From the IMG/VR virus record IMGVR_UViG_2718218305_000006: 64,000 bases of DNA. One strand, 5' to 3'. This DNA comes from a virus (taxonomy: Duplodnaviria; Heunggongvirae; Uroviricota; Caudoviricetes). The position numbers were made by a program, and so were the translations under genes. Shown piece after piece: positions 495-64,000 of the stretch. Under the pieces are notes generated by a model. That model searched no databases. It saw only the letters and a program-made list of their open reading frames with translations, and was not told the DNA's origin. Position 1 is the first letter of the stretch. Each line of letters opens with the position of its first letter.

Positions 495-1559
495 GTGCGG
501 GTATTACTTCGACCTGTTCTGGTACCGGAACTCGGGCTGGTGATCGTTAAGCCGGGCCGTGAATCCATGCCGGTATTCCACAATACCCGGGTACTGGTGG
601 AGCCGGAACCGAAAAGCATGCGTAATCTGCCGTCCGGGGTCGTTCCTGCCGTTCGCCAGCCGCTGGCGGAGGATAAATCATTACTGCCATTTTTCAGCGA
701 CGAACGAGTGATTCGTGCTGCTGGTGGCGCTGGCGCATTGTCTGACTGGTTACTGCGCCATGTTAAATCCTGCCAGTGGCCACACGGTGATTATCACCAC
801 AGTGAAACCGTCATTCACCGTTATGGTACCGGCGCAATGGTGTTGTGCTGGCACTGCGACAACCAGCTGCGCGACCAGACCTCCGAATCACTGGAACATC
901 TGGCTCAACAAAACCTGGCAGCTTGGATGATTGACGTCATACGCCATGCAATGAATGGCTCGCAGGAGCGTGAATTATCTCTGGCTGAATTATCCTGGTG
1001 GGCGGTCCGCAATCAGGTGGCGGACGCGCTACCGGAAGCGGTATTACGTCGTTCGCTGGGGTTGCGTGCGGAAAAAATCCGCTCAATGTACCGTGAAAGC
1101 GACATCGTACCGGGAGAGCAGACCGCCACCGGCATACTGAAGCAGCGCACAAAAAATATTGCGCTACCGCCTCACGTCCACCAGCACCAGCAACAGAACC
1201 CACCACAGGAAAAGACGGTGGTCAGCATTGCCGTTGATCCGGAATCTCCGGCTCAGTATCTCCAGCGCCAGAAACCACAACGGGAAGAGATGCCTGTATA
1301 CACGCGCTGGGTAAAAACGCAGAAATGCATGACATGCGGTAATCAGGCAGATGATCCGCATCACATCATTGGTCATGGACTGGGAGGGATGGGAACAAAG
1401 GCTGATGATTTGTTTGTTATTCCGCTGTGCCGTAAATGCCATAGCGAACTACACGCCGGGGTAAAAGATTTTGAAGAAAAACACGGCAGCCAGCTGTTGT
1501 TGCTGATTCGTTTTTTAATGCACGCGAGAAATTCGGGTGTTCTGAAGTGGAAAGCATAA
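495..1559 (+). CDS. DUF968-family prophage protein (YdfU-like)
   Basis: 354-aa ORF with GTG start and Cys/His-rich C-terminus; sits upstream of rusA-Q; paralogue at 41370..42473. Confidence 0.65.
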   Translation: MRVLLRPVLVPELGLVIVKPGRESMPVFHNTRVLVEPEPKSMRNLPSGVVPAVRQPLAEDKSLLPFFSDERVIRAAGGAGALSDWLLRHVKSCQWPHGDYHHSETVIHRYGTGAMVLCWHCDNQLRDQTSESLEHLAQQNLAAWMIDVIRHAMNGSQERELSLAELSWWAVRNQVADALPEAVLRRSLGLRAEKIRSMYRESDIVPGEQTATGILKQRTKNIALPPHVHQHQQQNPPQEKTVVSIAVDPESPAQYLQRQKPQREEMPVYTRWVKTQKCMTCGNQADDPHHIIGHGLGGMGTKADDLFVIPLCRKCHSELHAGVKDFEEKHGSQLLLLIRFLMHARNSGVLKWKA

Positions 1560-1925
1560 ATGACTGAACGCATAGAATTTGTTTTGCCTTACCCGCCAAC
1601 GGTGAACACTTACTGGCGTCGTCGTGGCAGCACATATTTTGTATCAAAAGCCGGGGAGCGTTATCGCCGGGCAGTGGCGCTTATTGTTCGCCAGCAGCGG
1701 CTGAAATTAAGCCTGTCCGGAAGGTTGGCAATAAAAATTATTGCAGAACCACCGGATAAGCGCCGCCGTGACCTGGACAATATCCTGAAAGCACCACTGG
1801 ATGCGTTGACGCATGCCGGACTTCTCATAGACGACGAGCAGTTTGATGAAATCAATATTGTGCGCGGTCAGCTCGTTCCTGGTGGGCGGCTGGGCGTGAA
1901 GATTTACAAAATTGAGAGTGAGTGA
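1560..1925 (+). CDS. rusA: Holliday junction resolvase RusA
   Basis: 121-aa translation MTERIEFVLPYPPTVNTYWRRRG..DLDNILKAPLDALTHAGLLIDDEQ matches the RusA family; nin-region position. Confidence 0.85.
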   Translation: MTERIEFVLPYPPTVNTYWRRRGSTYFVSKAGERYRRAVALIVRQQRLKLSLSGRLAIKIIAEPPDKRRRDLDNILKAPLDALTHAGLLIDDEQFDEINIVRGQLVPGGRLGVKIYKIESE

Positions 1926-16770: not shown

Positions 16771-17169
16771 ATGAAACACCGTGAAATACGGGCGGCAGTT
16801 CTGTCTGCCCTGAAAGAAAATATTTCTGAGAGGGTGAGCTGGTTTGACGGTCGCCCGGTTTTTATTGATGAACAGGAACTGCCTGCTGTTGCTGTTTACC
16901 TGACAGATGCGTCTGCTGCTGACGAGTTCGTTGATGAGGGAACCTGGGAGGCGACACTGCATATTGAGGTTTTTCTCAGGGCAAAAGAACCGGACTCGGC
17001 ACTGGATATGTGGATGGAAGAAAAAATTCTTCCTGCGCTGGAGGCAGTTCCCGGGCTCAGTGCATTACTGCTGAAGATGAATCTTCAGGGGTATGACTAC
17101 CGCCGGGATGATGAGTTTATGATGTGGGGATCGGCAGATCTCCTGTGGAAAATTACCTACGAGATGTGA
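16771..17169 (+). CDS. U: tail terminator protein U
   Basis: 132 aa, homologous to 60722..61117 (lambda U pattern ..YDYRRDD..ITYEM). Confidence 0.8.
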
Positions 17170-17176
17170 GGACGAT

Positions 17177-17929
17177 ATGGCAACACCAAATCCCCTTGAG
17201 CCGGTAAAAGGTGCCGGTACCACTCTGTGGGTTTACAACGGCAAGGGTGATGCTTATGCAAACCCGTTGTCAGACGATGACTGGCAGCGACTGGCTAAGG
17301 TGAAGGATCTGACGCCGGGCGAGATGACGGCAGAACCCTACGATGATAACTACCTGGATGATGAAGACGCGGACTGGACCGCGACCGGGCAGGGGCAGAA
17401 GTCTGCAGGAGATACCAGTTTTACGCTGGCCTGGAAACCGGGAGAAGAAGGTCAGAAAGGGCTTATAGGCTGGTTTGAAAGCGGGGATGTGCGGGCCTAT
17501 AAAATCCGTTTCCCAAATGGCACGGTGGATGTGTTCCGTGGCTGGGTCAGCAGTATCGGTAAGGCCGTGACGGCGAAAGAAGTGATCACCCGCACGGTGA
17601 AAGTCACTAACGTGGGCAAACCTTCCGTGGCGGAAGAACGCAGCGAAATTACGCCGGCCACTGCAATTAAGGTGACACCGACATCCGGTACGGTGGCAAA
17701 AGGGAAAACAACCACCCTGACGGTTTCTTTTGAGCCGGAAAGTGCAACCGACAAGACGTTCAGAGCGGTTTCCGCCGATCCGTCGAAAGCCACCATTAGT
17801 GTGAAAGATATGACAATTACGGTAAACGGCGTGGCGACAGGTAAGGTGCAGATCCCTGTGGTGAGCGGAAATGGTCAGTTCGCCGCAGTGGCTGAAGTCA
17901 CCGTTACTGAAGCGGGCGCTGCAGGGTAA
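17177..17929 (+). CDS. V: major tail protein V (with C-terminal Ig-like domain)
   Basis: 250 aa; translation identical to 61125..61877. Confidence 0.9.
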
Positions 17930-18734: not shown

Positions 18735-21389
18735 GTGACCACGATGGCAGGTAATTTTGCCGATCTGACAGCCGTGCTGACACTGGATTCTGCCCGTTTT
18801 TCTGAAGAGGCAGCGCGGGTAAAAAAAGAGCTGGGTGAAACCAGTGCGCTTGCTGATTTGATGTCCGGGAAAGTCAGTCAGTCTTTCAGAAAACAGGCTG
18901 ATGCTGCTGAGCAGAGTCTGAGCCGACAGGCGCTGGCTGCACAAAAAGCCGGGATATCAGTCGGACAGTATAAGGCTGCCATGCGCACACTGCCCGCACA
19001 GTTCACGGATATTGTCACTCAGCTTGCCGGTGGTCAGAATCCCTTCCTTATCATGCTGCAGCAGGGGGGGCAGATCAGCGATTCATTCGGTGGACCGCTC
19101 AGCCTGCTTACCCTGCTGAAGGAGGAACTTCTCGGGATCAGGGATGCCTCTGAATCATCAGAGGAGTCGCTGTCAGATACGGCAAATGCACTGGCTGAAA
19201 ATGCCCGGAATGCCGGTGAGCTGGGACGATTTATGTCGGTGGCCCGTGTGGCGGCAGGTGGCGGGGTTGCCGTACTGGCCGCGCTTGCTGCCGCCGCCTG
19301 GCAGGCAGAGCAGGCTGACCGGGCCTTATTGCGTTCACTGACCCTGACCGGAGGGGCTGCTGCCACCACAACGGCAGAATTGTGGAAAATGGCCGGGGTG
19401 ATCAGCGATGAAGCCGGTGGTGGTATCAGACAGGCGGCAGAAAATCTGGCCCGTCTGGCAGAAAGCGGGAAATATACCGCCGGGCAGCTACGGATCATGG
19501 GGGAAACCTCTCAGAGATGGCTGCAGACGGTGGGGGACGATGCCGGGAAGGTGGAAAAAGCCTTTGAAGGGATTGCAGCAGATCCGGTGAAGGCGCTGGC
19601 CTCCCTGAATCAGCAGTATAACTTCCTGAGCGTTTCCCAGTTACGCCATATTGATGAGCTTGAGCGCACGAAAGGTAAACAGGCTGCGGTGACGGAGGCG
19701 ATGTCCCTGTTTGCGGATGTCATGAATGCACGTCTGGAGCAACTTGATAAAGCGGCCACGCCGGTGGAAAAAATCTGGGACGATGTTAAAACCTGGACTT
19801 CTGACGCATGGGCATGGATAGGTGATCATACACTGGGGGCACTCAGTCTGATCACTGACGTGGTGGCAGGAACCGTTGAACAGGTGAAGCTGCTGCTTGT
19901 GCAGGGGGATCTGGCGCTGGCTGAATTTATTCAGTCAGCCTGGGAAACGACAAAGAATGTGCCCGGCGTTGGTGCGTTGTTTGGTGAACTGGCAGAAGAG
20001 AACCGCGTATTTATTGAGAAAACAAAACGCGATGAACTGGCGCTGAGAAAATCCATTGCGGAACGGGATGCGCGTATACGCCAGGGGGAAATGGGGTACA
20101 TCAACCGTTCGCGTGCAACAGGCGTCAGCAAAGGTCCGGGGCAGCAGGAAGCCGTCAGCCGTCTGGCTGAAGAGCTGACAGGTAAAAAGCATACATCACC
20201 GAAAACGCGCTCTGCCGGGGAGAGGGAAGAGGAGCAGGCAAGAGAGGCTCTGCTTGCCCTTGAAGCTGAGCTCAGGACGCTGGAAAAACACAGCGGTGCG
20301 AATGAGAAAATCAGCCGGCAGCGCCGTGATTTATGGAAGGCGGAAAGTCAGTATGCGGTCCTGAAAGAGGCTGCCACGAAACGACAGTTATCTGAGCAGG
20401 AAAAATCCCTGCTGGCGCATAAAGACGAGACGCTGGAGTACAAACGCCAGCTGGCTGAGCTGGGCGACAAGGTTGAATACCAGAAACGCCTGAATGAGCT
20501 GGCACAGCAGGCGGTGCGGTTTGAAGAGCAGCAGAGCGCGAAGCAGGCCGCCATCAGCGCAAAAGCCCGCGGTCTCACTGACCGTCAGGCGCAGCGGGAG
20601 TCTGAAGCGCAGCGTCTTCGGGACGTGTACGGTGATAATCCGGCTGCGCTGGCGAAGGCCACATCGGCACTGAAGAACACCTGGTCTGCGGAGGAGCAGC
20701 TTCGTGGAAGCTGGCTGGCCGGGCTGAAGTCCGGCTGGGGGGAGTGGGCGGAAAGTGCGACGGACAGTTTTTCGCAGGTTAAAAGTGCTGCCACGCAGAC
20801 CTTTGACGGTATTGCACAGAATATGGCGGCGATGCTGACCGGTGCAGAGGCAGACTGGCGGGGATTCACCCGTTCGGTGCTGTCCATGATGACAGAAATC
20901 CTGCTTAAACAGGCCATGGTGGGCATTGTCGGGCGTATCGGCAGCGCCATTGGCGGTGCTTTCGGTGGTGGTGCATCTGCTTCCTCGGGGACGGCCATTG
21001 AGGCTGCGGCGGCGAACTTCCATTTCGCGACCGGAGGATTTACGGGGACGGGCGGCAAATATGAGCCTGCGGGGATAGTTCACCGCGGGGAGTTTGTTTT
21101 CACGAAAGAGGCAACCAGCCGGATAGGTGTGGGGAATCTTTACCGTCTGATGCGCGGCTATGCGGAAGGTGGTTATGTGGGTGGTGCCGGAAGTCCGGCG
21201 CAGATGCGGCGGGCGGAAGGTATTAATTTTAATCAGAACAATCACGTGGTGATTCAGAACGACGGCACCAACGGACAGGCGGGGCCGCAGCTGATGAAGG
21301 CGGTGTATGACATGGCCCGCAAGGGGGCGCAGGATGAGCTCCGGCTGCAGTTGCGTGATGGCGGTATGTTATCGGGGAGCGGGCGATGA
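18735..21389 (+). CDS. H: tail tape measure protein H
   Basis: 884 aa; C-terminal half colinear with lambda H (..LWKAESQ..HKDETLEYKRQLA..FHFATGGFTGTGGKYEPAGIVHRGEFVFTKEAT..). Confidence 0.9.
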   Translation: MTTMAGNFADLTAVLTLDSARFSEEAARVKKELGETSALADLMSGKVSQSFRKQADAAEQSLSRQALAAQKAGISVGQYKAAMRTLPAQFTDIVTQLAGGQNPFLIMLQQGGQISDSFGGPLSLLTLLKEELLGIRDASESSEESLSDTANALAENARNAGELGRFMSVARVAAGGGVAVLAALAAAAWQAEQADRALLRSLTLTGGAAATTTAELWKMAGVISDEAGGGIRQAAENLARLAESGKYTAGQLRIMGETSQRWLQTVGDDAGKVEKAFEGIAADPVKALASLNQQYNFLSVSQLRHIDELERTKGKQAAVTEAMSLFADVMNARLEQLDKAATPVEKIWDDVKTWTSDAWAWIGDHTLGALSLITDVVAGTVEQVKLLLVQGDLALAEFIQSAWETTKNVPGVGALFGELAEENRVFIEKTKRDELALRKSIAERDARIRQGEMGYINRSRATGVSKGPGQQEAVSRLAEELTGKKHTSPKTRSAGEREEEQAREALLALEAELRTLEKHSGANEKISRQRRDLWKAESQYAVLKEAATKRQLSEQEKSLLAHKDETLEYKRQLAELGDKVEYQKRLNELAQQAVRFEEQQSAKQAAISAKARGLTDRQAQRESEAQRLRDVYGDNPAALAKATSALKNTWSAEEQLRGSWLAGLKSGWGEWAESATDSFSQVKSAATQTFDGIAQNMAAMLTGAEADWRGFTRSVLSMMTEILLKQAMVGIVGRIGSAIGGAFGGGASASSGTAIEAAAANFHFATGGFTGTGGKYEPAGIVHRGEFVFTKEATSRIGVGNLYRLMRGYAEGGYVGGAGSPAQMRRAEGINFNQNNHVVIQNDGTNGQAGPQLMKAVYDMARKGAQDELRLQLRDGGMLSGSGR

Positions 21390-40118: not shown

Positions 40119-40408
40119 CCTGGCCTGAAGCATTCACAACGGTAGGAATTGCGATGGCGGTGGCGCTGGTGGTGTATTCGATTTGCCGCTGGGGATAAAA
40201 ACGGTTTGCGGGAAAAGGATAGTTAAGTAGAATTGCTGCGGGTGCTTGAGGCTATCTGCCTCGGGCATGAACACCAACGGCAGATAGAGAAAAGCCCCAG
40301 TTAACATTACGCGTCCTGCAAGACGCTTAACATTAATCTGAGGCTCAATCCATGCTGAACACATGTAGGTTAGCCTCTTACGTGCCGAAAGGCAAGGAGA
40401 AGCAGGCT

Positions 40409-40564
40409 ATGAAGCAGCAAAAGGCGATGTTAATCGCCCTGATCGTCATCTGTTTAACCGTCATAGTGACGGCACTGGTAACGAGGAAAGACCTCTGCGA
40501 GGTGCGAATCCGAACCGGTCAGACGGAGGTCGCTGTCTTCGTAGACTACGAATCTGAGAAGTAA
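40409..40564 (+). CDS. hok: Hok/Gef-family type I toxin (overlapping mok-like frame from 40352)
   Basis: MKQQKAMLIALIVICLTVIVTALVTRKDLCEVRIRTGQTEVAVFVDYESEK parallels Hok (..LTRKSLCEIRYRDG..EVAAFMAYE..). Confidence 0.7.
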   Translation: MKQQKAMLIALIVICLTVIVTALVTRKDLCEVRIRTGQTEVAVFVDYESEK

Positions 40565-40683
40565 GAGACCAGGCGGGGGAGTAATCTCCCGCCACCTCTG
40601 ATGTGTCAGGCATCCTCAACGCACCCGCGCTTTACCATACTGAAAATGCTGTTTGAATGTTCATCTCTGAAAGAGGACTATGA

Positions 40684-41028
40684 ATGAAAAAGGTATTGAT
40701 TGCAGCACTTATTTCCGGTGTGTCTTTTGGCGCTTTTGCACAGCAGGGTGGTTTCCAGGGGCCAGAAGCAGAGCGTTCAACAGTAGCGCAGGCAAAAGAA
40801 CTGAAGGATGATGCATGGGTTATCCTTGAAGGGAGCATCGTTAAAAAAGTGGGTGATGAACGTTATGAGTTTCGTGACAATAGCGGGACAATTGTCACGG
40901 ATATTGATGACAGCGTATGGGCCGGGCAGAATGTTTCTCCGAAAGACAAAGTAAGAATTGAGGGTGAAATTGATAAAGACCTGAGCAGTGTTGAAGTTGA
41001 TGTAAAGGCACTGAAATTATTAAAGTAA
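40684..41028 (+). CDS. YgiW/YdeI (BOF) family periplasmic OB-fold protein
   Basis: Signal peptide MKKVLIAALISGVSFGAFA then ..ILEGSIVKKVGDERYEFRDNSGTI.. Confidence 0.7.
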   Translation: MKKVLIAALISGVSFGAFAQQGGFQGPEAERSTVAQAKELKDDAWVILEGSIVKKVGDERYEFRDNSGTIVTDIDDSVWAGQNVSPKDKVRIEGEIDKDLSSVEVDVKALKLLK

Positions 41029-41149
41029 CCGCCCCTGCTTGTTAAGCCCGTCTTACTGACGGGTTTTCTGTTTGTACATTCCGGCGTATTGCCTTACAAT
41101 TCGCGCAGTCAGCCTGAACAACTGACACCTGCTGTCACCGGAGAATCCG

Positions 41150-41422
41150 ATGACACAACACATAAAATCCCACAATTCTGAAGCCGACCCGGAAATTAAG
41201 CAGGGGAGGCGTTTTCGTGCGCCTCAGTATGGCTGGTTTCACTATCTGTTCTGTACGATCGATGAGGCAGATATGCTTCAAGAGGCGTATCTGCGTCGCG
41301 GTGTCCGTGTGGAGCGGAGTCTGAACGCTGATCGTCTGACCTGGACCGTTTCTGTATATCTTCCTGTTCGTGCACATCTGCCACGGACACATGCCTGCTA
41401 CCGTCAGCGCGTCTGGAGGTAA
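41150..41422 (+). CDS. hypothetical protein (90 aa) upstream of DUF968 gene
   Basis: Same slot and similar pattern as 215..493. Confidence 0.35.
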   Translation: MTQHIKSHNSEADPEIKQGRRFRAPQYGWFHYLFCTIDEADMLQEAYLRRGVRVERSLNADRLTWTVSVYLPVRAHLPRTHACYRQRVWR

Positions 41423-42473
41423 TGTGCGGGTATTACTTCGACCTGTTCTGGTTCCGGAACTCGGGCTGGTGGTCCTTAAGCCCGGTCGTGAATCATTGCC
41501 AGTTTTTCATCGCGGCAGGGTGCTGGTGGAGCCGGAACCGAAAAACATGCGGGCGCTGCCATCTGGAGCGGTTCCTGCTGTTCGCCAGCCGCTGGCGGAA
41601 GATAAATCACTGCTGCCATTTTTCAGCGATGAGCGGGTGATTCGTGCAGCTGGCGGCGCTGGTGCACTGTCTGACTGGTTATTACGTCACGTGAAATCCT
41701 GCCAGTGGCCACACGGCGATTATCATCACAGCGAAACCGTTATTCACAGTTACGGTGCTGGCGCAATGGTGTTGTGCTGGCACTGCGACAACCAGCTGCG
41801 CGACCAGACCTCCGAATCACTTGAGCAACTTACTCAACAAAATCTGACAGCCTGGATGATTGACGTCATACGCCATGTAATGAATGGCACGCAGGAGCGG
41901 GAATTATCGCTGGCTGAATTATCCTGGTGGGCAGTCTGCAATCAGGTGGTGGACGCATTACCTGAGGCAGTATCGCGTCGCTCTCTGGGATTACCGGCGG
42001 AAAAAATCCGCTCCGTATACCGTGAAAGCGACATCATACCGGGAGAACAGACCGCCACCAGCATACTGAAGCAGCGCACAAAAAATATTGCGCTACCGCC
42101 TCACACCCACCAGCAACAGAACCCACCACAGGAAAAGACGGTGGTCAGCATTGCCGTTGATCCGGAGTCTCCGGAATCCTTCATGAAACGACCTAAACGT
42201 CGCCGCTGGGTAAATGAGAAATACACACGCTGGGTAAAGACACAGCCGTGTGCGTGTTGTGGTAAGCCAGCGGACGATCCTCATCATCTGATTGGTCATG
42301 GTCAGGGCGGAATGGGAACAAAATCCCACGATATTTTCACGCTACCGCTGTGTCGGGAGCATCACAACGAGCTTCATGCGGATCCGCTGGCGTTCGAAGA
42401 AAAGCATGGTTCCCAGGTTGATTTAATTTTTCGTTTTCTTGATCACGCCTTTGCAACCGGCGTGCTCGGGTAA
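41370..42473 (+). CDS. DUF968-family prophage protein (YdfU-like)
   Basis: 367 aa; long stretches identical to 495..1559. Confidence 0.65.
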   Translation: MHICHGHMPATVSASGGNVRVLLRPVLVPELGLVVLKPGRESLPVFHRGRVLVEPEPKNMRALPSGAVPAVRQPLAEDKSLLPFFSDERVIRAAGGAGALSDWLLRHVKSCQWPHGDYHHSETVIHSYGAGAMVLCWHCDNQLRDQTSESLEQLTQQNLTAWMIDVIRHVMNGTQERELSLAELSWWAVCNQVVDALPEAVSRRSLGLPAEKIRSVYRESDIIPGEQTATSILKQRTKNIALPPHTHQQQNPPQEKTVVSIAVDPESPESFMKRPKRRRWVNEKYTRWVKTQPCACCGKPADDPHHLIGHGQGGMGTKSHDIFTLPLCREHHNELHADPLAFEEKHGSQVDLIFRFLDHAFATGVLG

Positions 42474-42485
42474 AAGAGGTTACTG

Positions 42486-42791
42486 ATGCGTATAGAGTTT
42501 GTTTTGCCTTACCCGCCGACGGTGAACACCTACTGGCGACGTCGTGGCAGCACATATTTTGTATCAAAAGCCGGTGAGCGTTATCGCCGGGATGTGGCAC
42601 TTATTGTTCGCCAGCAGCGGCTGAAATTAAACCTGTCCGGAAGGCTGGCGATAAAGATTATTGCAGAGCCACCGGATAAGCGCCGTCGTGACCTGGACAA
42701 TATCCTGAAAGCACCACTGGATGCGCTGACGCATGCCGGACTTCTCATAGACGACGAGCAGTTTGATGAAATCAATATTGTGCGCGGCTAG
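42486..42791 (+). CDS. rusA: RusA resolvase, truncated by premature TAG
   Basis: Identical to the copy-1 N-terminus up to ..EINIVRG then TAG where copy 1 has CAG; downstream frame still encodes ..LVSGGRLGVKIYKIESE. Confidence 0.75.
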   Translation: MRIEFVLPYPPTVNTYWRRRGSTYFVSKAGERYRRDVALIVRQQRLKLNLSGRLAIKIIAEPPDKRRRDLDNILKAPLDALTHAGLLIDDEQFDEINIVRG

Positions 42792-42841
42792 CTCGTTTCT
42801 GGTGGGCGGCTGGGCGTGAAGATTTACAAAATTGAAAGTGA

Positions 42842-43408
42842 GTGAGCATAAATATGATATACCCGGAAATTACAGGCAAAAGCGGTGAGCATTTACGCCT
42901 GAAAACGCTGGAAAGTGTCTGGATCCAGGGGAAACTGCGTATGTGGGGGCGTTGGTCGTATATTGGCGACGGTAAGACGGGAAATATGTTCAACCAATTA
43001 CTGACCTCTAAAAAGCTGACAAAAACGGCAATTAACGAGGCGCTCCGGAGGATGAAAAAAGCGGGTCTGGACAAACCTGAACTTGAGGCTTTTTTGCGGG
43101 ATATGATCAACGGCAATCAAAAAAGCTGGCTGGCACATTGTACCGATTCAGAGGCGTTAATAATCGATAGGGTTATTGGTGAAGTACTGGCAGGTTATCC
43201 CGGGCTGCTCAATGTTCTGAGTCAGCGTTATGTGGGGCGGGGGATGACTAAGCGCAAAATGGCTGAATTGCTGAATGATGCACATCCGGAATGGAGTTTA
43301 AGAACCTGTGAAAGACGCATTGAGCATTGGCTAAAGGTGGCAGAATTTATTTTGTACAAACCAATGGTTATGGCTTTTGGTATAGAGAAAAAAGTTATTG
43401 CTTTTTGA
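42842..43408 (+). CDS. late-gene antiterminator Q-like protein
   Basis: 188 aa; N-terminal two-thirds near-identical to 1922..2488, C-terminus diverged; followed by conserved element and terminator. Confidence 0.75.
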   Translation: MSINMIYPEITGKSGEHLRLKTLESVWIQGKLRMWGRWSYIGDGKTGNMFNQLLTSKKLTKTAINEALRRMKKAGLDKPELEAFLRDMINGNQKSWLAHCTDSEALIIDRVIGEVLAGYPGLLNVLSQRYVGRGMTKRKMAELLNDAHPEWSLRTCERRIEHWLKVAEFILYKPMVMAFGIEKKVIAF

Positions 43409-43487
43409 CGTAAAAACTGCTTCAATTCCGGTAAGCTTCGCAAAGCTGTACCGCGAGGCGAATAGCAGACATGGACATTTGAAAGAG

Positions 43488-43509
43488 CCCGCTTTTTGCG
43501 GGTTTTTTT
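43488..43509 (+). terminator. rho-independent terminator (tR'-like)
   Basis: CCCGC-TTTTT-GCGGG followed by a T7 run about 80 nt after Q. Confidence 0.5.
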
Positions 43510-43632
43510 ATGACTGAAAAACGGCACGGGGCGTTAAACGCGCTGGTGGTTGCTAATACCGGTCTTTCAACTTGCTGGCTTTTTCGACAAGAGTTATTGG
43601 TATGTCACGTTAACCGGAAAAGGGAAAAAGAC

Positions 43633-43830
43633 ATGCTAAAACAGCAGGATATGACAGAAACCGCCAGAGTGGTGTTTAATGAATTAAGCGTTACCGAACC
43701 GGCGACAGTCGGGGAGATTGCGCAGAATACTTACCTTTCACGCGAACGCTGCCAGTTAATACTGACCCAGCTGGTTATGGCGGGTCTGGCAGACTATCAG
43801 TGCGGTTGTTACAGACGCATTCAGTCCTGA
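43633..43830 (+). CDS. small hypothetical protein (65 aa), possible winged-helix
   Basis: Internal ATG with purine-rich RBS; ..TVGEIAQNTYLSRERCQLILTQLVMAG.. Confidence 0.35.
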   Translation: MLKQQDMTETARVVFNELSVTEPATVGEIAQNTYLSRERCQLILTQLVMAGLADYQCGCYRRIQS

Positions 43831-43965
43831 AGGCTTTTTATTTGTGGTAAATGGGCGGCTGGTGGGGGGGGCGGCACCTGTCAGTCCTTTGCTTATGTGT
43901 TGATGATAATTTACCTTTTGGGGCTATAATTGAGCTAACCAATTGCTAATGAAAGTAAAATTATA

Positions 43966-44679
43966 ATGGCTGTTGTCTGTTCAGTTATCATGGTTTGCTC
44001 CCCAATTAATATTTTTCTTGAAAAGGATACGTTGTCACTTAAGCCAGGCTCAGTCGTTCTGGCCACCAAATGCATCAGGGAGCTTTTCCTTATGCATTAT
44101 GGCAAAGTTAAAATTGTCGATATAAGCGAATCCGTCGTAAGTCAATATCTGGAAAGTCAGCATAAGCTGACGAGGACTCGTCTGACTGACATTCCGCTTT
44201 ACCTGTTGCTGGAACCCAACAATCCTGCGTTGGCTGCGGCTTTAATTACCAGCCAGGGATTTTCCGGAGAGGTCACGGATATGTTTCTTATGATGGCCTG
44301 CCTGTCTCTGTTTGAAACAGATGAACGGATGTCATTGTTTTTAAGTGGATGTTTATCCAGCATAAGTGCCAAAGTCAGGGCGATAATTCAGACAGATATA
44401 TCAGCAAGCTGGACGCTTGGTGCGATTGCTCTACAGTTGCATATGAGTGAGAGTTTGTTAAAGACAAAACTGAAAAATGAAGGGGGCATGTTCAGTCGCT
44501 TGTTGCTGGAAGAGCGGATGCGTGTTGCTGTAAATATGTTATGTTCCCGGTATGGATATGGACAGGCTGTAGCAGAAAAATGTGGTTATTCAAGCCGGTC
44601 CTACTTTATTTCTGTATTTCACCGCTATTATGGCTTCCCGCCAGACAGATATGTATCCAGGCAAGGGCTTGATTATTGA
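43966..44679 (+). CDS. AraC-family transcriptional regulator
   Basis: C-terminal AraC HTH (..SWTLGAIALQLHMSESLLKTKLK..RSYFISVFHRYYGFPP); located between Q and the tRNA genes. Confidence 0.7.
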   Translation: MAVVCSVIMVCSPINIFLEKDTLSLKPGSVVLATKCIRELFLMHYGKVKIVDISESVVSQYLESQHKLTRTRLTDIPLYLLLEPNNPALAAALITSQGFSGEVTDMFLMMACLSLFETDERMSLFLSGCLSSISAKVRAIIQTDISASWTLGAIALQLHMSESLLKTKLKNEGGMFSRLLLEERMRVAVNMLCSRYGYGQAVAEKCGYSSRSYFISVFHRYYGFPPDRYVSRQGLDY

Positions 44680-44707
44680 TTTTCATCTGATTATTATTTT
44701 TTGGCTC

Positions 44708-44783
44708 GGCCCTTTAGCTCAGTGGTGAGAGCGAGCGACTCATAATCGCCAGGTCGCTGGTTCAAATCCAGCAAGGGCCACCA
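44708..44783 (+). tRNA. tRNA with CAT anticodon (ileZ-like tRNA-Ile2 or tRNA-Met)
   Basis: Cloverleaf: acceptor GGCCCTT/AAGGGCC, anticodon loop CTCATAA, T-loop GGTTCAAATCC, 3' CCA encoded. Confidence 0.8.
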
Positions 44784-44790
44784 TCACAAA

Positions 44791-44870
44791 CCGCCATTAG
44801 CTTATCAGGAAGAGCAGACGACACCATAACAGGGTTGTTGGTGCGGGGCCGGGTCCCCGATGGCGGTCCA
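44791..44870 (+). other. degenerate tRNA-like element between the two tRNAs
   Basis: Perfect 7-bp acceptor pairing CCGCCAT/ATGGCGG, D-stem and CGGGG/CCCCG T-stem, but 6-nt T-loop and no standard 7-nt anticodon loop. Confidence 0.25.
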
Positions 44871-44883
44871 TTATCGGTATTCT

Positions 44884-44960
44884 GCGTTGTTAGCTCAGCC
44901 GGACAGAGCAATTGCCTTCTAAGCAATCGGTCAGTGGTTCGACTCCACTACAACGCGCCA
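44884..44960 (+). tRNA. tRNA-Arg (anticodon TCT, argO-like)
   Basis: Acceptor GCGTTGT/ACAACGC, anticodon loop CTTCTAA, T-loop GGTTCGACTCC, CCA encoded. Confidence 0.85.
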
Positions 44961-44973
44961 CACTTATTTTCCA

Positions 44974-44997
44974 GGCTCGCTTCGGCGGGCCTTTTTT
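44974..44997 (+). terminator. rho-independent terminator after tRNA-Arg
   Basis: GGCTCGC-TTCG-GCGGGCC followed by TTTTTT. Confidence 0.55.
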
Positions 44998-45129
44998 GTA
45001 TCTGCGCCACGCCCGGCGCATACCAACCACAGAGCCTTTCGGGGGTGAGCTTACGGAGTGGTCAGTGTGACTTTCTCTGTGGGCAGATCGCTCCCGGGCG
45101 TTGGCTCACCCACCCAAAGGAACGTCACG

Positions 45130-60725: not shown

Positions 60726-61117
60726 AACATACTGATATCCGTGCGGCAGTGCTGGATGCACTGGAGCTGCATGAACACGGGGCGACGCTGTTTGATGGTC
60801 GCCCCGTTGTTTTTGACGAAGAGGATTTTCCGGCCGTCGCGGTTTATCTGACGGATGCAGAGTATACCGGTGAAGAGCTGGATGCAGATACCTGGCGGGC
60901 CACACTGCATATTGAGGTGTTTTTACCGGCACAGGTACCGGATTCGGAGCTTGATCAGTGGATGGAAAGCCGGATTTATCCGGCGGTGACTGCGATCCCG
61001 GCACTGGCAGACCTGATTACGACGATGGTTACGCAGGGCTATGAGTATCGTCGTGATGACGATATGGCGTTATGGAGTTCTGCGGATCTGACTTATTCCA
61101 TTACATACGAGATGTGA
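60722..61117 (+). CDS. U: tail terminator protein U
   Basis: 131 aa, lambda order. Confidence 0.85.
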
Positions 61118-61124
61118 GGACGAT

Positions 61125-61877
61125 ATGGCAACACCAAATCCCCTTGAGCCGGTAAAAGGTGCCGGTACCACTCTGTGGGTTTACAACGGCAAGGGTGATG
61201 CTTATGCAAACCCGTTGTCAGACGATGACTGGCAGCGACTGGCTAAGGTGAAGGATCTGACGCCGGGCGAGATGACGGCAGAACCCTACGATGATAACTA
61301 CCTGGATGATGAAGACGCGGACTGGACCGCGACCGGGCAGGGGCAGAAGTCTGCAGGAGATACCAGTTTTACGCTGGCCTGGAAACCGGGAGAAGAAGGT
61401 CAGAAAGGGCTTATAGGCTGGTTTGAAAGCGGGGATGTGCGGGCCTATAAAATCCGTTTCCCAAATGGCACGGTGGATGTGTTCCGTGGCTGGGTCAGCA
61501 GTATCGGTAAGGCCGTGACGGCGAAAGAAGTGATCACCCGCACGGTGAAAGTCACTAACGTGGGCAAACCTTCCGTGGCGGAAGAACGCAGCGAAATTAC
61601 GCCGGCCACTGCAATTAAGGTGACACCGACATCCGGTACGGTGGCAAAAGGGAAAACAACCACCCTGACTGTTTCTTTTGAGCCGGAAAGTGCAACCGAC
61701 AAGACGTTCAGAGCGGTTTCCGCCGATCCGTCGAAAGCCACCATTAGTGTGAAAGATATGACAATTACGGTAAACGGCGTGGCGACAGGTAAGGTGCAGA
61801 TCCCTGTGGTGAGCGGAAATGGTCAGTTCGCCGCAGTGGCTGAAGTCACCGTTACTGAAGCGGGCGCTGCAGGGTAA
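61125..61877 (+). CDS. V: major tail protein V
   Basis: 250 aa, identical translation to 17177..17929. Confidence 0.9.
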
Positions 61878-62753: not shown

Positions 62754-64000
62754 TCTGGTTATTGATTTGAGTCTGGATGCGGCCCGGTTTGATGAACAGA
62801 TGGCCCGGGTACGCCGTCATTTTTCCAGTCTGGAGGCGGATGCCAGAAAAACCGCCAGTACTGTTGAACAGGGGCTGAGCCGACAGGCGCTGGCGGCACA
62901 AAAAGCCGGGATATCAGTCGGACAGTATAAGGCTGCCATGCGCACACTGCCCGCACAGTTCACGGATATTGTCACTCAGCTTGCCGGTGGTCAGAATCCC
63001 TTCCTTATCATGCTGCAGCAGGGGGGGCAGATCAGCGATTCATTCGGTGGACCGCTCAGCCTGCTTACCCTGCTGAAGGAGGAACTTCTCGGGATCAGGG
63101 ATGCCTCTGAATCATCAGAGGAGTCGCTGTCAGATACGGCAAATGCACTGGCTGAAAATGCCCGGAATGCCGGTGAGCTGGGACGATTTATGTCGGTGGC
63201 CCGTGTGGCGGCAGGTGGCGGGGTTGCCGTACTGGCCGCGCTTGCTGCCGCCGCCTGGCAGGCAGAGCAGGCTGACCGGGCCTTATTGCGTTCACTGATC
63301 CTGACCGGAGGGGCGGCTGCCACCACAACGGCAGAATTGTGGAAAATGGCCGGGGTGATCAGCGATGAAGCCGGTGGTGGTATCAGACAGGCGGCAGAAA
63401 ATCTGGCCCGTCTGGCAGAAAGCGGGAAATATACCGCCGGGCAGCTACGGATCATGGGGGAAACCTCTCAGAGATGGCTGCAGACGGTGGGGGACGATGC
63501 CGGGAAGGTGGAAAAAGCCTTTGAAGGGATTGCAGCAGATCCGGTGAAGGCGCTGGCCTCCCTGAATCAGCAGTATAACTTCCTGAGCGTTTCCCAGTTA
63601 CGCCATATTGATGAGCTTGAGCGCACGAAAGGTAAACAGGTTGCGGTGACGGAGGCGATGTCCCTGTTTGCGGATGTCATGAATGCACGTCTGGAGCAAC
63701 TTGATAAAGCGGCCACGCCGGTGGAAAAAATCTGGGACGATGTTAAAACCTGGACTTCTGACGCATGGGCATGGATAGGTGATCATACACTGGGGGCACT
63801 CAGTCTGATCACTGACGTGGTGGCCGGAACCGTTGAACAAGTGAAGCTGCTGCTTGTGCAGGGGGATCTGGCGCTGGCTGAATTTATTCAGTCAGCCTGG
63901 GAAACGACAAAGAATGTGCCCGGCGTTGGTGCGTTGTTTGGTGAACTGGCAGAAGAGAACCGCGTATTTATTGAGAAAACAAAACGCGATGAACTGGCGC
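62734..64000 (+). CDS. H: tail tape measure protein H (5' part, runs off the window)
   Basis: ATG at 62734 giving MSQPAGDLVIDLSLDAARFDEQMARVRRHF.. (lambda H N-terminus); no stop before the window end. Confidence 0.85.
   Translation, partial: MSQPAGDLVIDLSLDAARFDEQMARVRRHFSSLEADARKTASTVEQGLSRQALAAQKAGISVGQYKAAMRTLPAQFTDIVTQLAGGQNPFLIMLQQGGQISDSFGGPLSLLTLLKEELLGIRDASESSEESLSDTANALAENARNAGELGRFMSVARVAAGGGVAVLAALAAAAWQAEQADRALLRSLILTGGAAATTTAELWKMAGVISDEAGGGIRQAAENLARLAESGKYTAGQLRIMGETSQRWLQTVGDDAGKVEKAFEGIAADPVKALASLNQQYNFLSVSQLRHIDELERTKGKQVAVTEAMSLFADVMNARLEQLDKAATPVEKIWDDVKTWTSDAWAWIGDHTLGALSLITDVVAGTVEQVKLLLVQGDLALAEFIQSAWETTKNVPGVGALFGELAEENRVFIEKTKRDELA

What the first reader, a model, noticed from the sequence alone, without database searches (positions are those of the whole stretch)
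42781..42791. Premature TAG in rusA of prophage 2
Copy 2 of rusA has TAG where copy 1 has CAG, removing the last 20 residues although the downstream frame is conserved. This is either an inactivating mutation or read-through dependent on an amber suppressor.
Basis: seen in the sequence. Interest (0 to 1): 0.35.

Follow-up and report, generated by a model that had tools for sequence, protein, structure and literature searches.

The report
Nonsense mutation in prophage rusA
One of several copies of a phage DNA-junction-cutting gene in E. coli O157:H7 carries a real, inherited stop-codon mutation that most likely just inactivates it, which is ordinary decay of a crippled prophage.

Summary
The rusA copy at 42486-42791 ends at TAG (42789-42791), where the paralogue at 1560-1925 has CAG. 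The old frame then runs 17 more codons to TGA at 42843-42845. The loss is 18 residues, not 20.

The window is E. coli O157:H7, with prophages Sp12 and Sp11 in tandem. The truncated gene is Sp11 ECs_2194 (WP_001217444.1), already annotated as a 101-aa CDS.

The TAG is not a read error. The exact 61-mer occurs in 259 complete genome records, and the exact protein is on at least 999 contigs. The same 61-mer with CAG occurs in 124 records (O145, O111, O103, O121, O45 and early-branching O157). In these the flanking genes are identical. So one C-to-T change arose on the branch to typical O157:H7 and is inherited clonally.

The catalytic Asp, Asp, Lys and Asp residues are kept. The last of four core beta-strands and the conserved GGRLG-KI motif are lost, and that sheet forms the dimer interface. 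Loss of function is therefore likely, though it is inferred.

No suppressor tRNA lies in the window. The supE allele occurs in only 155 records, and every listed one is a K-12 laboratory strain. Sp11 is already immobile, and intact rusA paralogues remain. This is ordinary and of low interest.

The parts
42486..42791 (+). Truncated rusA of prophage Sp11 (ECs_2194 / WP_001217444.1), 101 codons plus TAG
   Evidence: ORF list. Pfam RusA PF05866 scores 58.1 bits against a cut-off of 22.8.
42789..42791 (+). Premature amber codon TAG. The ancestral state is CAG (Gln102 of the 119-aa allele), equivalent to Pro103 of K-12 RusA.
   Evidence: CAG is found at this site in 493/89, O145 RM9872, PV15-279, F3113 and LSU61.
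42792..42845 (+). Orphaned 3' end of rusA: 17 in-frame codons (LVSGGRLGVKIYKIESE) plus the original TGA. It encodes the last beta-strand and the GGRLG-KI motif.
   Evidence: Translation. It is identical to the intact allele WP_001217447.1. Conservation is and the strand assignment.
1560..1925 (+). Intact rusA paralogue (121 aa) in the neighbouring prophage Sp12; 94% nucleotide identity over 300 nt
   Evidence: The AlphaFold model matches 1q8r/2h8e with TM 0.80-0.84.
42854..43408 (+). Downstream Q-like antiterminator gene (DUF1133, ECs_2193). Its ATG lies 8 nt after the original rusA TGA and 62 nt after the premature TAG.
   Evidence: Annotations, and the sequence. No stable RNA structure lies between the TAG and the ATG (z = +1.1).
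41424..42473 (+). Upstream DUF968 gene (ECs_2195). Its protein accession is the same in TAG and CAG strains.
   Evidence: WP_001265229.1 in all of them.
43168..43168 (+). Linked derived C-to-T substitution, synonymous in the Q-like gene. It is the only other substitution on this haplotype in about 4.7 kb.
   Evidence: The Q protein accession is unchanged (WP_000640035.1).

Best explanation
This is a single C-to-T nonsense mutation (CAG to TAG) in the rusA Holliday-junction resolvase gene of the lambdoid prophage Sp11 of typical E. coli O157:H7. It arose once, after typical O157:H7 (clonal complex A6) split from the sorbitol-fermenting and beta-glucuronidase-positive O157 lineages, and it is inherited vertically. 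The 101-residue product keeps the metal-binding and catalytic residues. It lacks the last of the four core beta-strands and the conserved GGRLG-KI motif. That sheet forms the dimer interface on which the active sites depend, so the protein is most likely misfolded or unable to dimerise, and inactive. The mutation is tolerated because Sp11 is already a grounded prophage, rusA is an accessory gene, and the same genome carries intact paralogues as well as the host RuvABC system. Shown here: the mutation, its polarity, its distribution, and which structural element is lost. Inferred: loss of activity and selective neutrality.
For: The sequence and the alignment with copy 1 are. The window matches O157:H7 Sakai prophage Sp11, gene ECs_2194, at 100% identity. 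The TAG 61-mer is exact in 259 complete records, and every listed row that names a serotype is O157. The CAG 61-mer is exact in 124 records from O145:H28, O111, O103:H2, O121, O45 and the O157 strains 493/89, LSU61, PV15-279 and F3113. These two counts sum to the 383 records at 99% identity or more. The flanking genes have identical protein accessions in both groups. Only 2 substitutions separate the haplotypes over about 4.7 kb. 493/89 (A4) and PV15-279 (A5) are lineages the stepwise model places before typical O157:H7 (A6) (PMC6256406). PMC10758439/89 and LSU61 'ancestral strains', and an abstract describes LSU-61 as an evolutionary intermediate. The exact 101-aa and 119-aa proteins were seen on at least 999 and at least 1000 contigs. 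The alignment to K-12 RusA (1q8r) is gapless and puts the stop at residue 103. D70, D72, K76 and D91 correspond to D69, D71, K75 and D90 of copy 2, all retained. The AlphaFold model of the intact paralogue has core strands at 4-9, 55-62, 95-102 and 111-118, and the stop falls at position 104. The model matches 1q8r/2h8e with TM 0.80-0.84. The published structure has a four-stranded sheet, a dimer interface formed between the sheets, and cross-subunit contacts at the active site (PMC1636454). In 22 homologues reaching down to 53% identity, R110 and I115 are invariant and G108, G109, G112 and K114 are at least 90% conserved. Sp11 has a disrupted integrase and repressor and showed no excision, replication or packaging (PMC2669165). 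Sakai has 6 megablast-detectable rusA places.
Against: No experiment shows that RusA(1-101) is inactive. All catalytic residues and the Arg-rich DNA-binding loop remain. No study of a C-terminal truncation was found. The annotation pipelines call it a normal CDS, not a pseudogene. One of only two substitutions on this branch is a nonsense change. That is mildly unusual if mutation were random, at roughly 1 in 10, and could hint at selection for loss.
Confidence: 0.85

Rival explanations
1. The TAG is read through, either by a resident amber suppressor tRNA or by near-cognate tRNA-Gln. Functional full-length RusA, carrying the ancestral Gln, is then still made at a meaningful level.
For: The downstream 17 codons and the original TGA are intact. 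The base after the stop is C. From my own knowledge, not tested here, that is a relatively weak termination context in E. coli, and suppressor-free E. coli inserts mainly Gln at leaky UAG codons.
Against: ARAGORN finds only tRNA(cat) and tRNA-Arg(tct) in the window. supE is exact in 155 records, fewer than the 259 TAG carriers, and all 45 listed are K-12 laboratory strains. The intact downstream frame is expected by chance given 2 substitutions in 4.7 kb. The TAG is confined to one clonal lineage. No read-through-promoting RNA structure follows it. By general knowledge, basal read-through would yield only about 0.1-1% of the product.
Confidence: 0.04
2. The truncated 101-residue protein is stable and has a function. 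It may be a weakened resolvase, a junction-binding protein without cleavage, or a dominant-negative partner of the intact RusA paralogues.
For: It keeps the catalytic residues, the R66-R68 DNA-binding loop and the flexible hairpin. It has a good Shine-Dalgarno sequence (AAGAGG) and ATG start. It differs at only two residues (D36/A, N49/S) from the Sp12 paralogue over 99 aligned residues. The allele has persisted in all the typical O157:H7 genomes seen.
Against: It lacks one of four core strands of the sheet that forms the dimer interface, including the invariant R110 and I115. Persistence is explained by clonal inheritance over a very short divergence. Other truncated rusA alleles occur sporadically in E. 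coli (P0085 at 91 aa, P0013 at 110 aa), as expected for random decay.
Confidence: 0.07
3. The stop was selected for its polar effect. It uncouples translation of rusA from the Q-like antiterminator gene 62 nt downstream and so lowers late-gene expression from Sp11.
For: In the intact allele the rusA TGA lies only 8 nt before the Q ATG, and the Q Shine-Dalgarno sequence is weak. A nonsense change is one of only two substitutions on the branch.
Against: No stable structure could mask the Q start (z = +1.1, and 175 of 200 shuffles fold at least as well). By general knowledge, 62 nt of untranslated RNA is short for Rho-dependent polarity. No terminator-like site lies on the + strand between the TAG and the Q gene. 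Sp11 already has a disrupted repressor and integrase, so there is little to regulate.
Confidence: 0.03
4. The TAG is a sequencing or assembly error in this window.
For: None.
Against: The sequence is identical in 259 independently assembled complete genome records. The protein is on at least 999 contigs.
Confidence: 0.01

Closest known systems
E. coli K-12 RusA (DLP12 prophage; PDB 1Q8R, 2H8C, 2H8E), Pfam PF05866
   Same: The full-length paralogue aligns without gaps at E = 5e-22. The intact paralogue has the same predicted fold, TM 0.80-0.84. D70, D72, K76, D91 and R69 are conserved. It is also a gene in the nin region of a defective lambdoid prophage.
   Different: Copy 2 stops at the equivalent of residue 103 of 120 and lacks the last beta-strand. 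K-12 rusA is intact but transcriptionally silent, whereas here the coding sequence itself is broken.
Intact allele WP_001217447.1 (119 aa) in O145:H28, O111, O103, O121, O45 and early-branching O157 (493/89, LSU61, PV15-279, F3113)
   Same: It is identical at every one of the other 359 nucleotides of the gene and has identical flanking genes.
   Different: It has CAG instead of TAG at codon 102.
Pseudogenes of grounded or defective prophages in O157:H7 Sakai (Asadulghani et al. 2009, PMC2669165)
   Same: Sp11 is listed there with a disrupted integrase and repressor and with no excision, replication or packaging. This rusA nonsense codon is one more lesion of the same kind.
   Different: That paper's text mentions neither rusA nor nonsense mutations (0 occurrences). 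This particular lesion is a point mutation, not an IS insertion or deletion.
Laboratory amber mutants of lambdoid phages grown on supE/supF hosts
   Same: Both are in-frame CAG-to-TAG changes that supE would restore to the wild-type protein.
   Different: This one is natural and fixed in a wild pathogen lineage. At least 104 of the 259 carrier records cannot hold supE (155 supE records against 259 carriers), and every listed supE record is a K-12 laboratory strain.

Membership tests
RusA family (Pfam PF05866) Holliday junction resolvase | Significant match to the family profile above the curated threshold | tested here: met
   58.1 bits (copy 2) and 59.3 bits (copy 1) against a cut-off of 22.8. 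E = 5e-22 to 1q8r.
RusA family (Pfam PF05866) Holliday junction resolvase | Catalytic and metal-binding residues Asp70, Asp72, Lys76 and Asp91, and DNA-binding Arg69 (K-12 numbering) | tested here: met
   The gapless alignment gives D69, D71, K75, D90 and R68 in copy 2. The importance of these residues comes from PMC10956419 and PMC1636454.
RusA family (Pfam PF05866) Holliday junction resolvase | Complete alpha/beta fold: a four-stranded mixed sheet plus two helices, with the sheet forming the dimer interface | tested here: not met
   The model of the intact paralogue has core strands at 4-9, 55-62, 95-102 and 111-118. Copy 2 ends at the equivalent of residue 103, so the fourth strand is absent. 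The fold description is from PMC1636454. Copy 1 does meet this feature.
RusA family (Pfam PF05866) Holliday junction resolvase | Mg-dependent symmetric cleavage of Holliday junctions; suppression of ruv mutants | not testable with these tools
   This needs biochemistry or genetics.
Suppressor-dependent or programmed stop-codon read-through gene | A cognate suppressor tRNA (anticodon CUA) in the same element or genome | tested here: not met
   There is none in the window. supE is exact in only 155 records against 259 TAG carriers, and all 45 listed are K-12 laboratory strains. Other suppressor loci and the rest of the O157 genome were not scanned.
Suppressor-dependent or programmed stop-codon read-through gene | The in-frame stop is conserved across diverged relatives, and the downstream frame is kept under purifying selection | tested here: not met
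   The TAG occurs only in typical O157:H7, and the closest relatives have CAG. Divergence is too low for the downstream frame to be informative.
Suppressor-dependent or programmed stop-codon read-through gene | A read-through-promoting RNA structure or context after the stop | tested here: not met
   minimum free energy -17.8 kcal/mol against a shuffle mean of -21.05, z = +1.1.

The most novel reading that the evidence does not exclude
RusA(1-101) is a stable fragment that still binds four-way junctions or forms heterodimers with the intact RusA paralogues of the other lambdoid prophages. It would then act as a dominant-negative modulator of junction resolution. That could influence prophage-prophage recombination, and so genome rearrangement, specifically in typical O157:H7.
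Probability: 0.04. Interest if true: 0.45.

Novelty: already known. Interest (0 to 1): 0.08.

Why it matters
It matters little. The truncated ORF has been in public annotation since the Sakai genome (ECs_2194, WP_001217444.1). It is one more lesion in a prophage already shown to be immobile. Two minor practical points follow. The C-to-T at window 42789 (Sakai 2191822 by offset), with its linked synonymous change at 43168, separates typical O157:H7 (A6) from the early-branching O157 strains examined here (493/89, LSU61, PV15-279, F3113). Annotation pipelines also label the 101-aa product as an ordinary RusA although it lacks a core strand, so counts of 'functional' rusA copies in O157 genomes are slightly inflated.

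Tried and rejected
1. Sequencing error is rejected.

2. Suppressor tRNA. ARAGORN on the window found none. The supE allele search, with K-12 laboratory strains recovered as a positive control, gave 155 records and no O157 among the 45 listed. supD, supF and supP, and a whole-genome tRNA scan of O157, could not be done with these tools.

3. RNA structure between the TAG and the Q start, as a read-through stimulator or an RBS mask: none beyond shuffled controls.

4. The promoter and terminator scan of 42300-43600 found nothing above the shuffle expectation.

5. Literature. The Asadulghani 2009 text does not mention rusA or nonsense mutations. The search 'rusA + O157 + pseudogene' listed six papers; judged from titles and abstracts only, none is about this site, and none was opened. 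The RusA-FokI paper and the 2006 DNA-complex paper hold no C-terminal truncation data. The 2003 RusA structure paper is not held, so strand order within the sheet (edge or centre) could not be read. The prediction tool returns no coordinates, so contacts of the lost strand were not computed.

6. 'Downstream frame conserved' as evidence for continued translation is rejected, because divergence is too low.

Full report
**Observation**

The region 42300-43100 holds an ORF at 42486-42791 of 101 codons ending in TAG at 42789-42791. Translating on in the same frame gives LVSGGRLGVKIYKIESE and then TGA at 42843-42845.

A second copy lies at 1560-1925 (121 aa). The two copies are 94% identical over 300 nt. 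In the alignment, copy 1 reads GGT CAG where copy 2 reads GGC TAG.

The truncation removes 18 residues, not 20.

**Where the window comes from**

The 363-nt stretch is 100% identical to dozens of E. coli O157:H7 chromosomes. In strain Sakai it lies in 'prophage Sp11, lambda-like phage' as ECs_2194, 'phage endonuclease', 306 nt. In EDL933 it is WP_001217444.1, 'RusA family crossover junction endodeoxyribonuclease'. Neither annotation marks it as a pseudogene.

The window's + strand is the Sakai minus strand. By coordinate offset, copy 1 falls beyond the annotated end of Sp11, in what I take to be the adjacent prophage Sp12.

The gene order around copy 2 is:
- the DUF968 gene (41424-42473);
- rusA;
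- the Q-like DUF1133 antiterminator (42854-43408);
- an AraC-like regulator;
- two tRNA genes.

**Is the TAG real, and which state is ancestral?**

A 61-mer centred on the TAG is exact in 259 complete E. coli records. Every listed row that names a serotype is O157. The same 61-mer with C instead of T is exact in 124 records. These come from:
- O145:H28, O111:H-, O103:H2, O121:H19 and O45:H2;
- four O157 strains: 493/89, LSU61, F3113 and PV15-279.

The sum 259 + 124 = 383 equals the number of records at 99% identity or more for the whole gene. This fits the two alleles rarely if ever sharing a genome, though overlap was not checked directly.

In the CAG strains the gene is annotated as a 119-aa protein, WP_001217447.1. 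It is flanked by genes with exactly the same protein accessions as in Sakai and EDL933. Its translation is copy 2 with Gln at codon 102.

Over about 4.7 kb (40260-45000), two substitutions are shared differences from all five CAG strains: 42789 T/C and 43168 T/C. The second is synonymous in the Q-like gene. A homopolymer length difference near 43871 and a few strain-private SNPs also appear.

The four CAG-bearing O157 strains all fall outside typical O157:H7:
- 493/89 is the sorbitol-fermenting O157:H- clone (clonal complex A4).
- LSU-61 is described as an evolutionary intermediate (abstract of PMC3309690).
- PV15-279 is beta-glucuronidase-positive O157:H7 (A5).
- F3113 groups with PV15-279 by plasmid.

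In the stepwise model, typical O157:H7 (A6) emerged from A5 (PMC6256406). PMC10758439 also/89 and LSU61 'ancestral strains'. The TAG is therefore a derived C-to-T transition that arose once, on the branch to typical O157:H7, and is clonally inherited.

The exact 101-aa and 119-aa sequences were each seen on about 1000 or more contigs. A sequencing error is excluded.

**What the truncation removes**

Both copies match Pfam RusA well above threshold. The full-length paralogue aligns without gaps to K-12 RusA (1q8r, 2h8c; E = 5e-22). That alignment places the stop at K-12 residue 103.

The residues shown by mutagenesis to be needed for catalysis and DNA binding are D70, D72, K76, D91 and R69 (PMC10956419; PMC1636454). 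They correspond to D69, D71, K75, D90 and R68 of copy 2, and all are retained.

An AlphaFold model of copy 1 has mean pLDDT 82 and pTM 0.77. It superposes on 1q8r and 2h8e with TM 0.80-0.84 over the whole chain. Its elements are:
- core strands at 4-9, 55-62, 95-102 and 111-118;
- helices at 30-45 and 71-85;
- the flexible hairpin at 19-28.

The stop corresponds to residue 104 of copy 1. The truncated product therefore lacks the loop 104-110 and the whole fourth strand.

[quoted passage not shown] Among 22 homologues reaching down to 53% identity, R110 and I115 in the lost segment are invariant. G108, G109, G112 and K114 are at least 90% conserved. K-12 RusA has the same GGRL motif.

Losing a quarter of the sheet that builds the obligate dimer should abolish or severely impair activity. 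This is an inference. No truncation experiment was found, and the 2003 structure paper is not held.

**Read-through**

The window has only two tRNA genes, with anticodons cat and tct.

The supE allele would restore the ancestral Gln. I searched for glnV with anticodon CTA, using a sequence recalled from memory. It is exact in 155 of 5423 matching records. All 45 listed are K-12 laboratory derivatives (C600, DH5alpha, DH1, J53 and others), which validates the query as a positive control.

Because 155 is smaller than 259, most TAG carriers cannot have supE, and probably none does. Other suppressor loci were not tested.

No stable RNA structure follows the stop.

The intact downstream frame is not evidence of continued translation. 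With 2 substitutions in 4.7 kb, about 0.02 are expected in 54 nt.

From general knowledge, basal near-cognate read-through of UAG is of the order of 0.1-1% and mostly inserts Gln. It would give traces of wild-type protein. I rate a physiologically meaningful role for this as unlikely.

**Context that makes loss tolerable**

Sp11 has a disrupted integrase and repressor. It showed no excision, replication or packaging in Sakai (PMC2669165).

By established knowledge, rusA in the nin region is an accessory recombination function of lambdoid phages.

An intact paralogue lies 41 kb away in the same window. Sakai has 6 megablast-detectable rusA places, and some O157 genomes have up to 8.

Other truncated rusA alleles occur sporadically in E. 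coli, for example a 91-aa form on 20 contigs and a 110-aa frameshifted form. That fits recurrent random decay.

**Possible side effects**

In the intact allele, the rusA TGA lies 8 nt before the Q-like gene's ATG. With the TAG, ribosomes stop 62 nt upstream of it.

I found no structure that could mask the Q start. No terminator-like site lies on the + strand between the TAG and the Q gene. A polar or regulatory role is therefore possible but unsupported.

One of only two substitutions on this branch is a nonsense change. That is mildly unexpected, at roughly a 1-in-10 chance, but it is not evidence of selection.

**Verdict**

This is a real, clonally inherited nonsense mutation that most probably inactivates one redundant rusA copy in an already grounded prophage of typical E. 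coli O157:H7. The sequence and its 101-aa annotation are long public.

Only two points go beyond the existing annotation:
- its use as a marker separating typical O157:H7 (A6) from the early-branching O157 strains examined;
- the fact that pipelines label the truncated product as an ordinary RusA.

Interest is low.

Noticed in passing
window 43863-43873: A short G/C-run length polymorphism distinguishes strains (Sakai-type window, 493/89, LSU61, O145 RM9872). It lies in the intergenic region upstream of the AraC-like helix-turn-helix regulator gene at 43966-44679.
   Followed up: no
window 44708-44783: ARAGORN calls this tRNA-Met (anticodon cat). The Sakai and RefSeq annotations call the same gene tRNA-Ile (ileZ5, anticodon cat), presumably read as Ile after lysidine modification.
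   Followed up: no
window 17152-17451 and 61100-61399; also 18887-19186 / 62844-63143 and six other pairs: The two tandem prophages share long direct repeats about 41-44 kb apart, and one 300-nt block is 100% identical. These are obvious substrates for Sp11/Sp12 recombination or deletion.
   Followed up: no
window 43168: This synonymous C-to-T in the Q-like antiterminator gene is the only other substitution linked to the TAG haplotype over about 4.7 kb. Together the two sites mark typical O157:H7 against the early-branching O157 strains examined.
   Followed up: partly
proteins P0085 (91 aa, 20 contigs) and P0013 (110 aa): Other independently truncated or frameshifted alleles of this rusA type exist in E. 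coli assemblies, so rusA decay in prophages is recurrent.
   Followed up: no
window 1500-1565 versus 42420-42490: Nucleotide identity between the two prophages drops sharply just upstream of the rusA start codon. The DUF968 C-termini and the rusA N-termini differ (MTERIEF against MRIEF). This suggests a mosaic or recombination boundary at the gene junction.
   Followed up: no
E. coli genome collection (not the window): The supE (glnV CUA) allele is exact in 155 'complete genome' records. Some are labelled as coming from mouse gut, Homo sapiens or oil palm. By name, O16:H48 serotype or genome size these look like K-12 laboratory derivatives.
   Followed up: no
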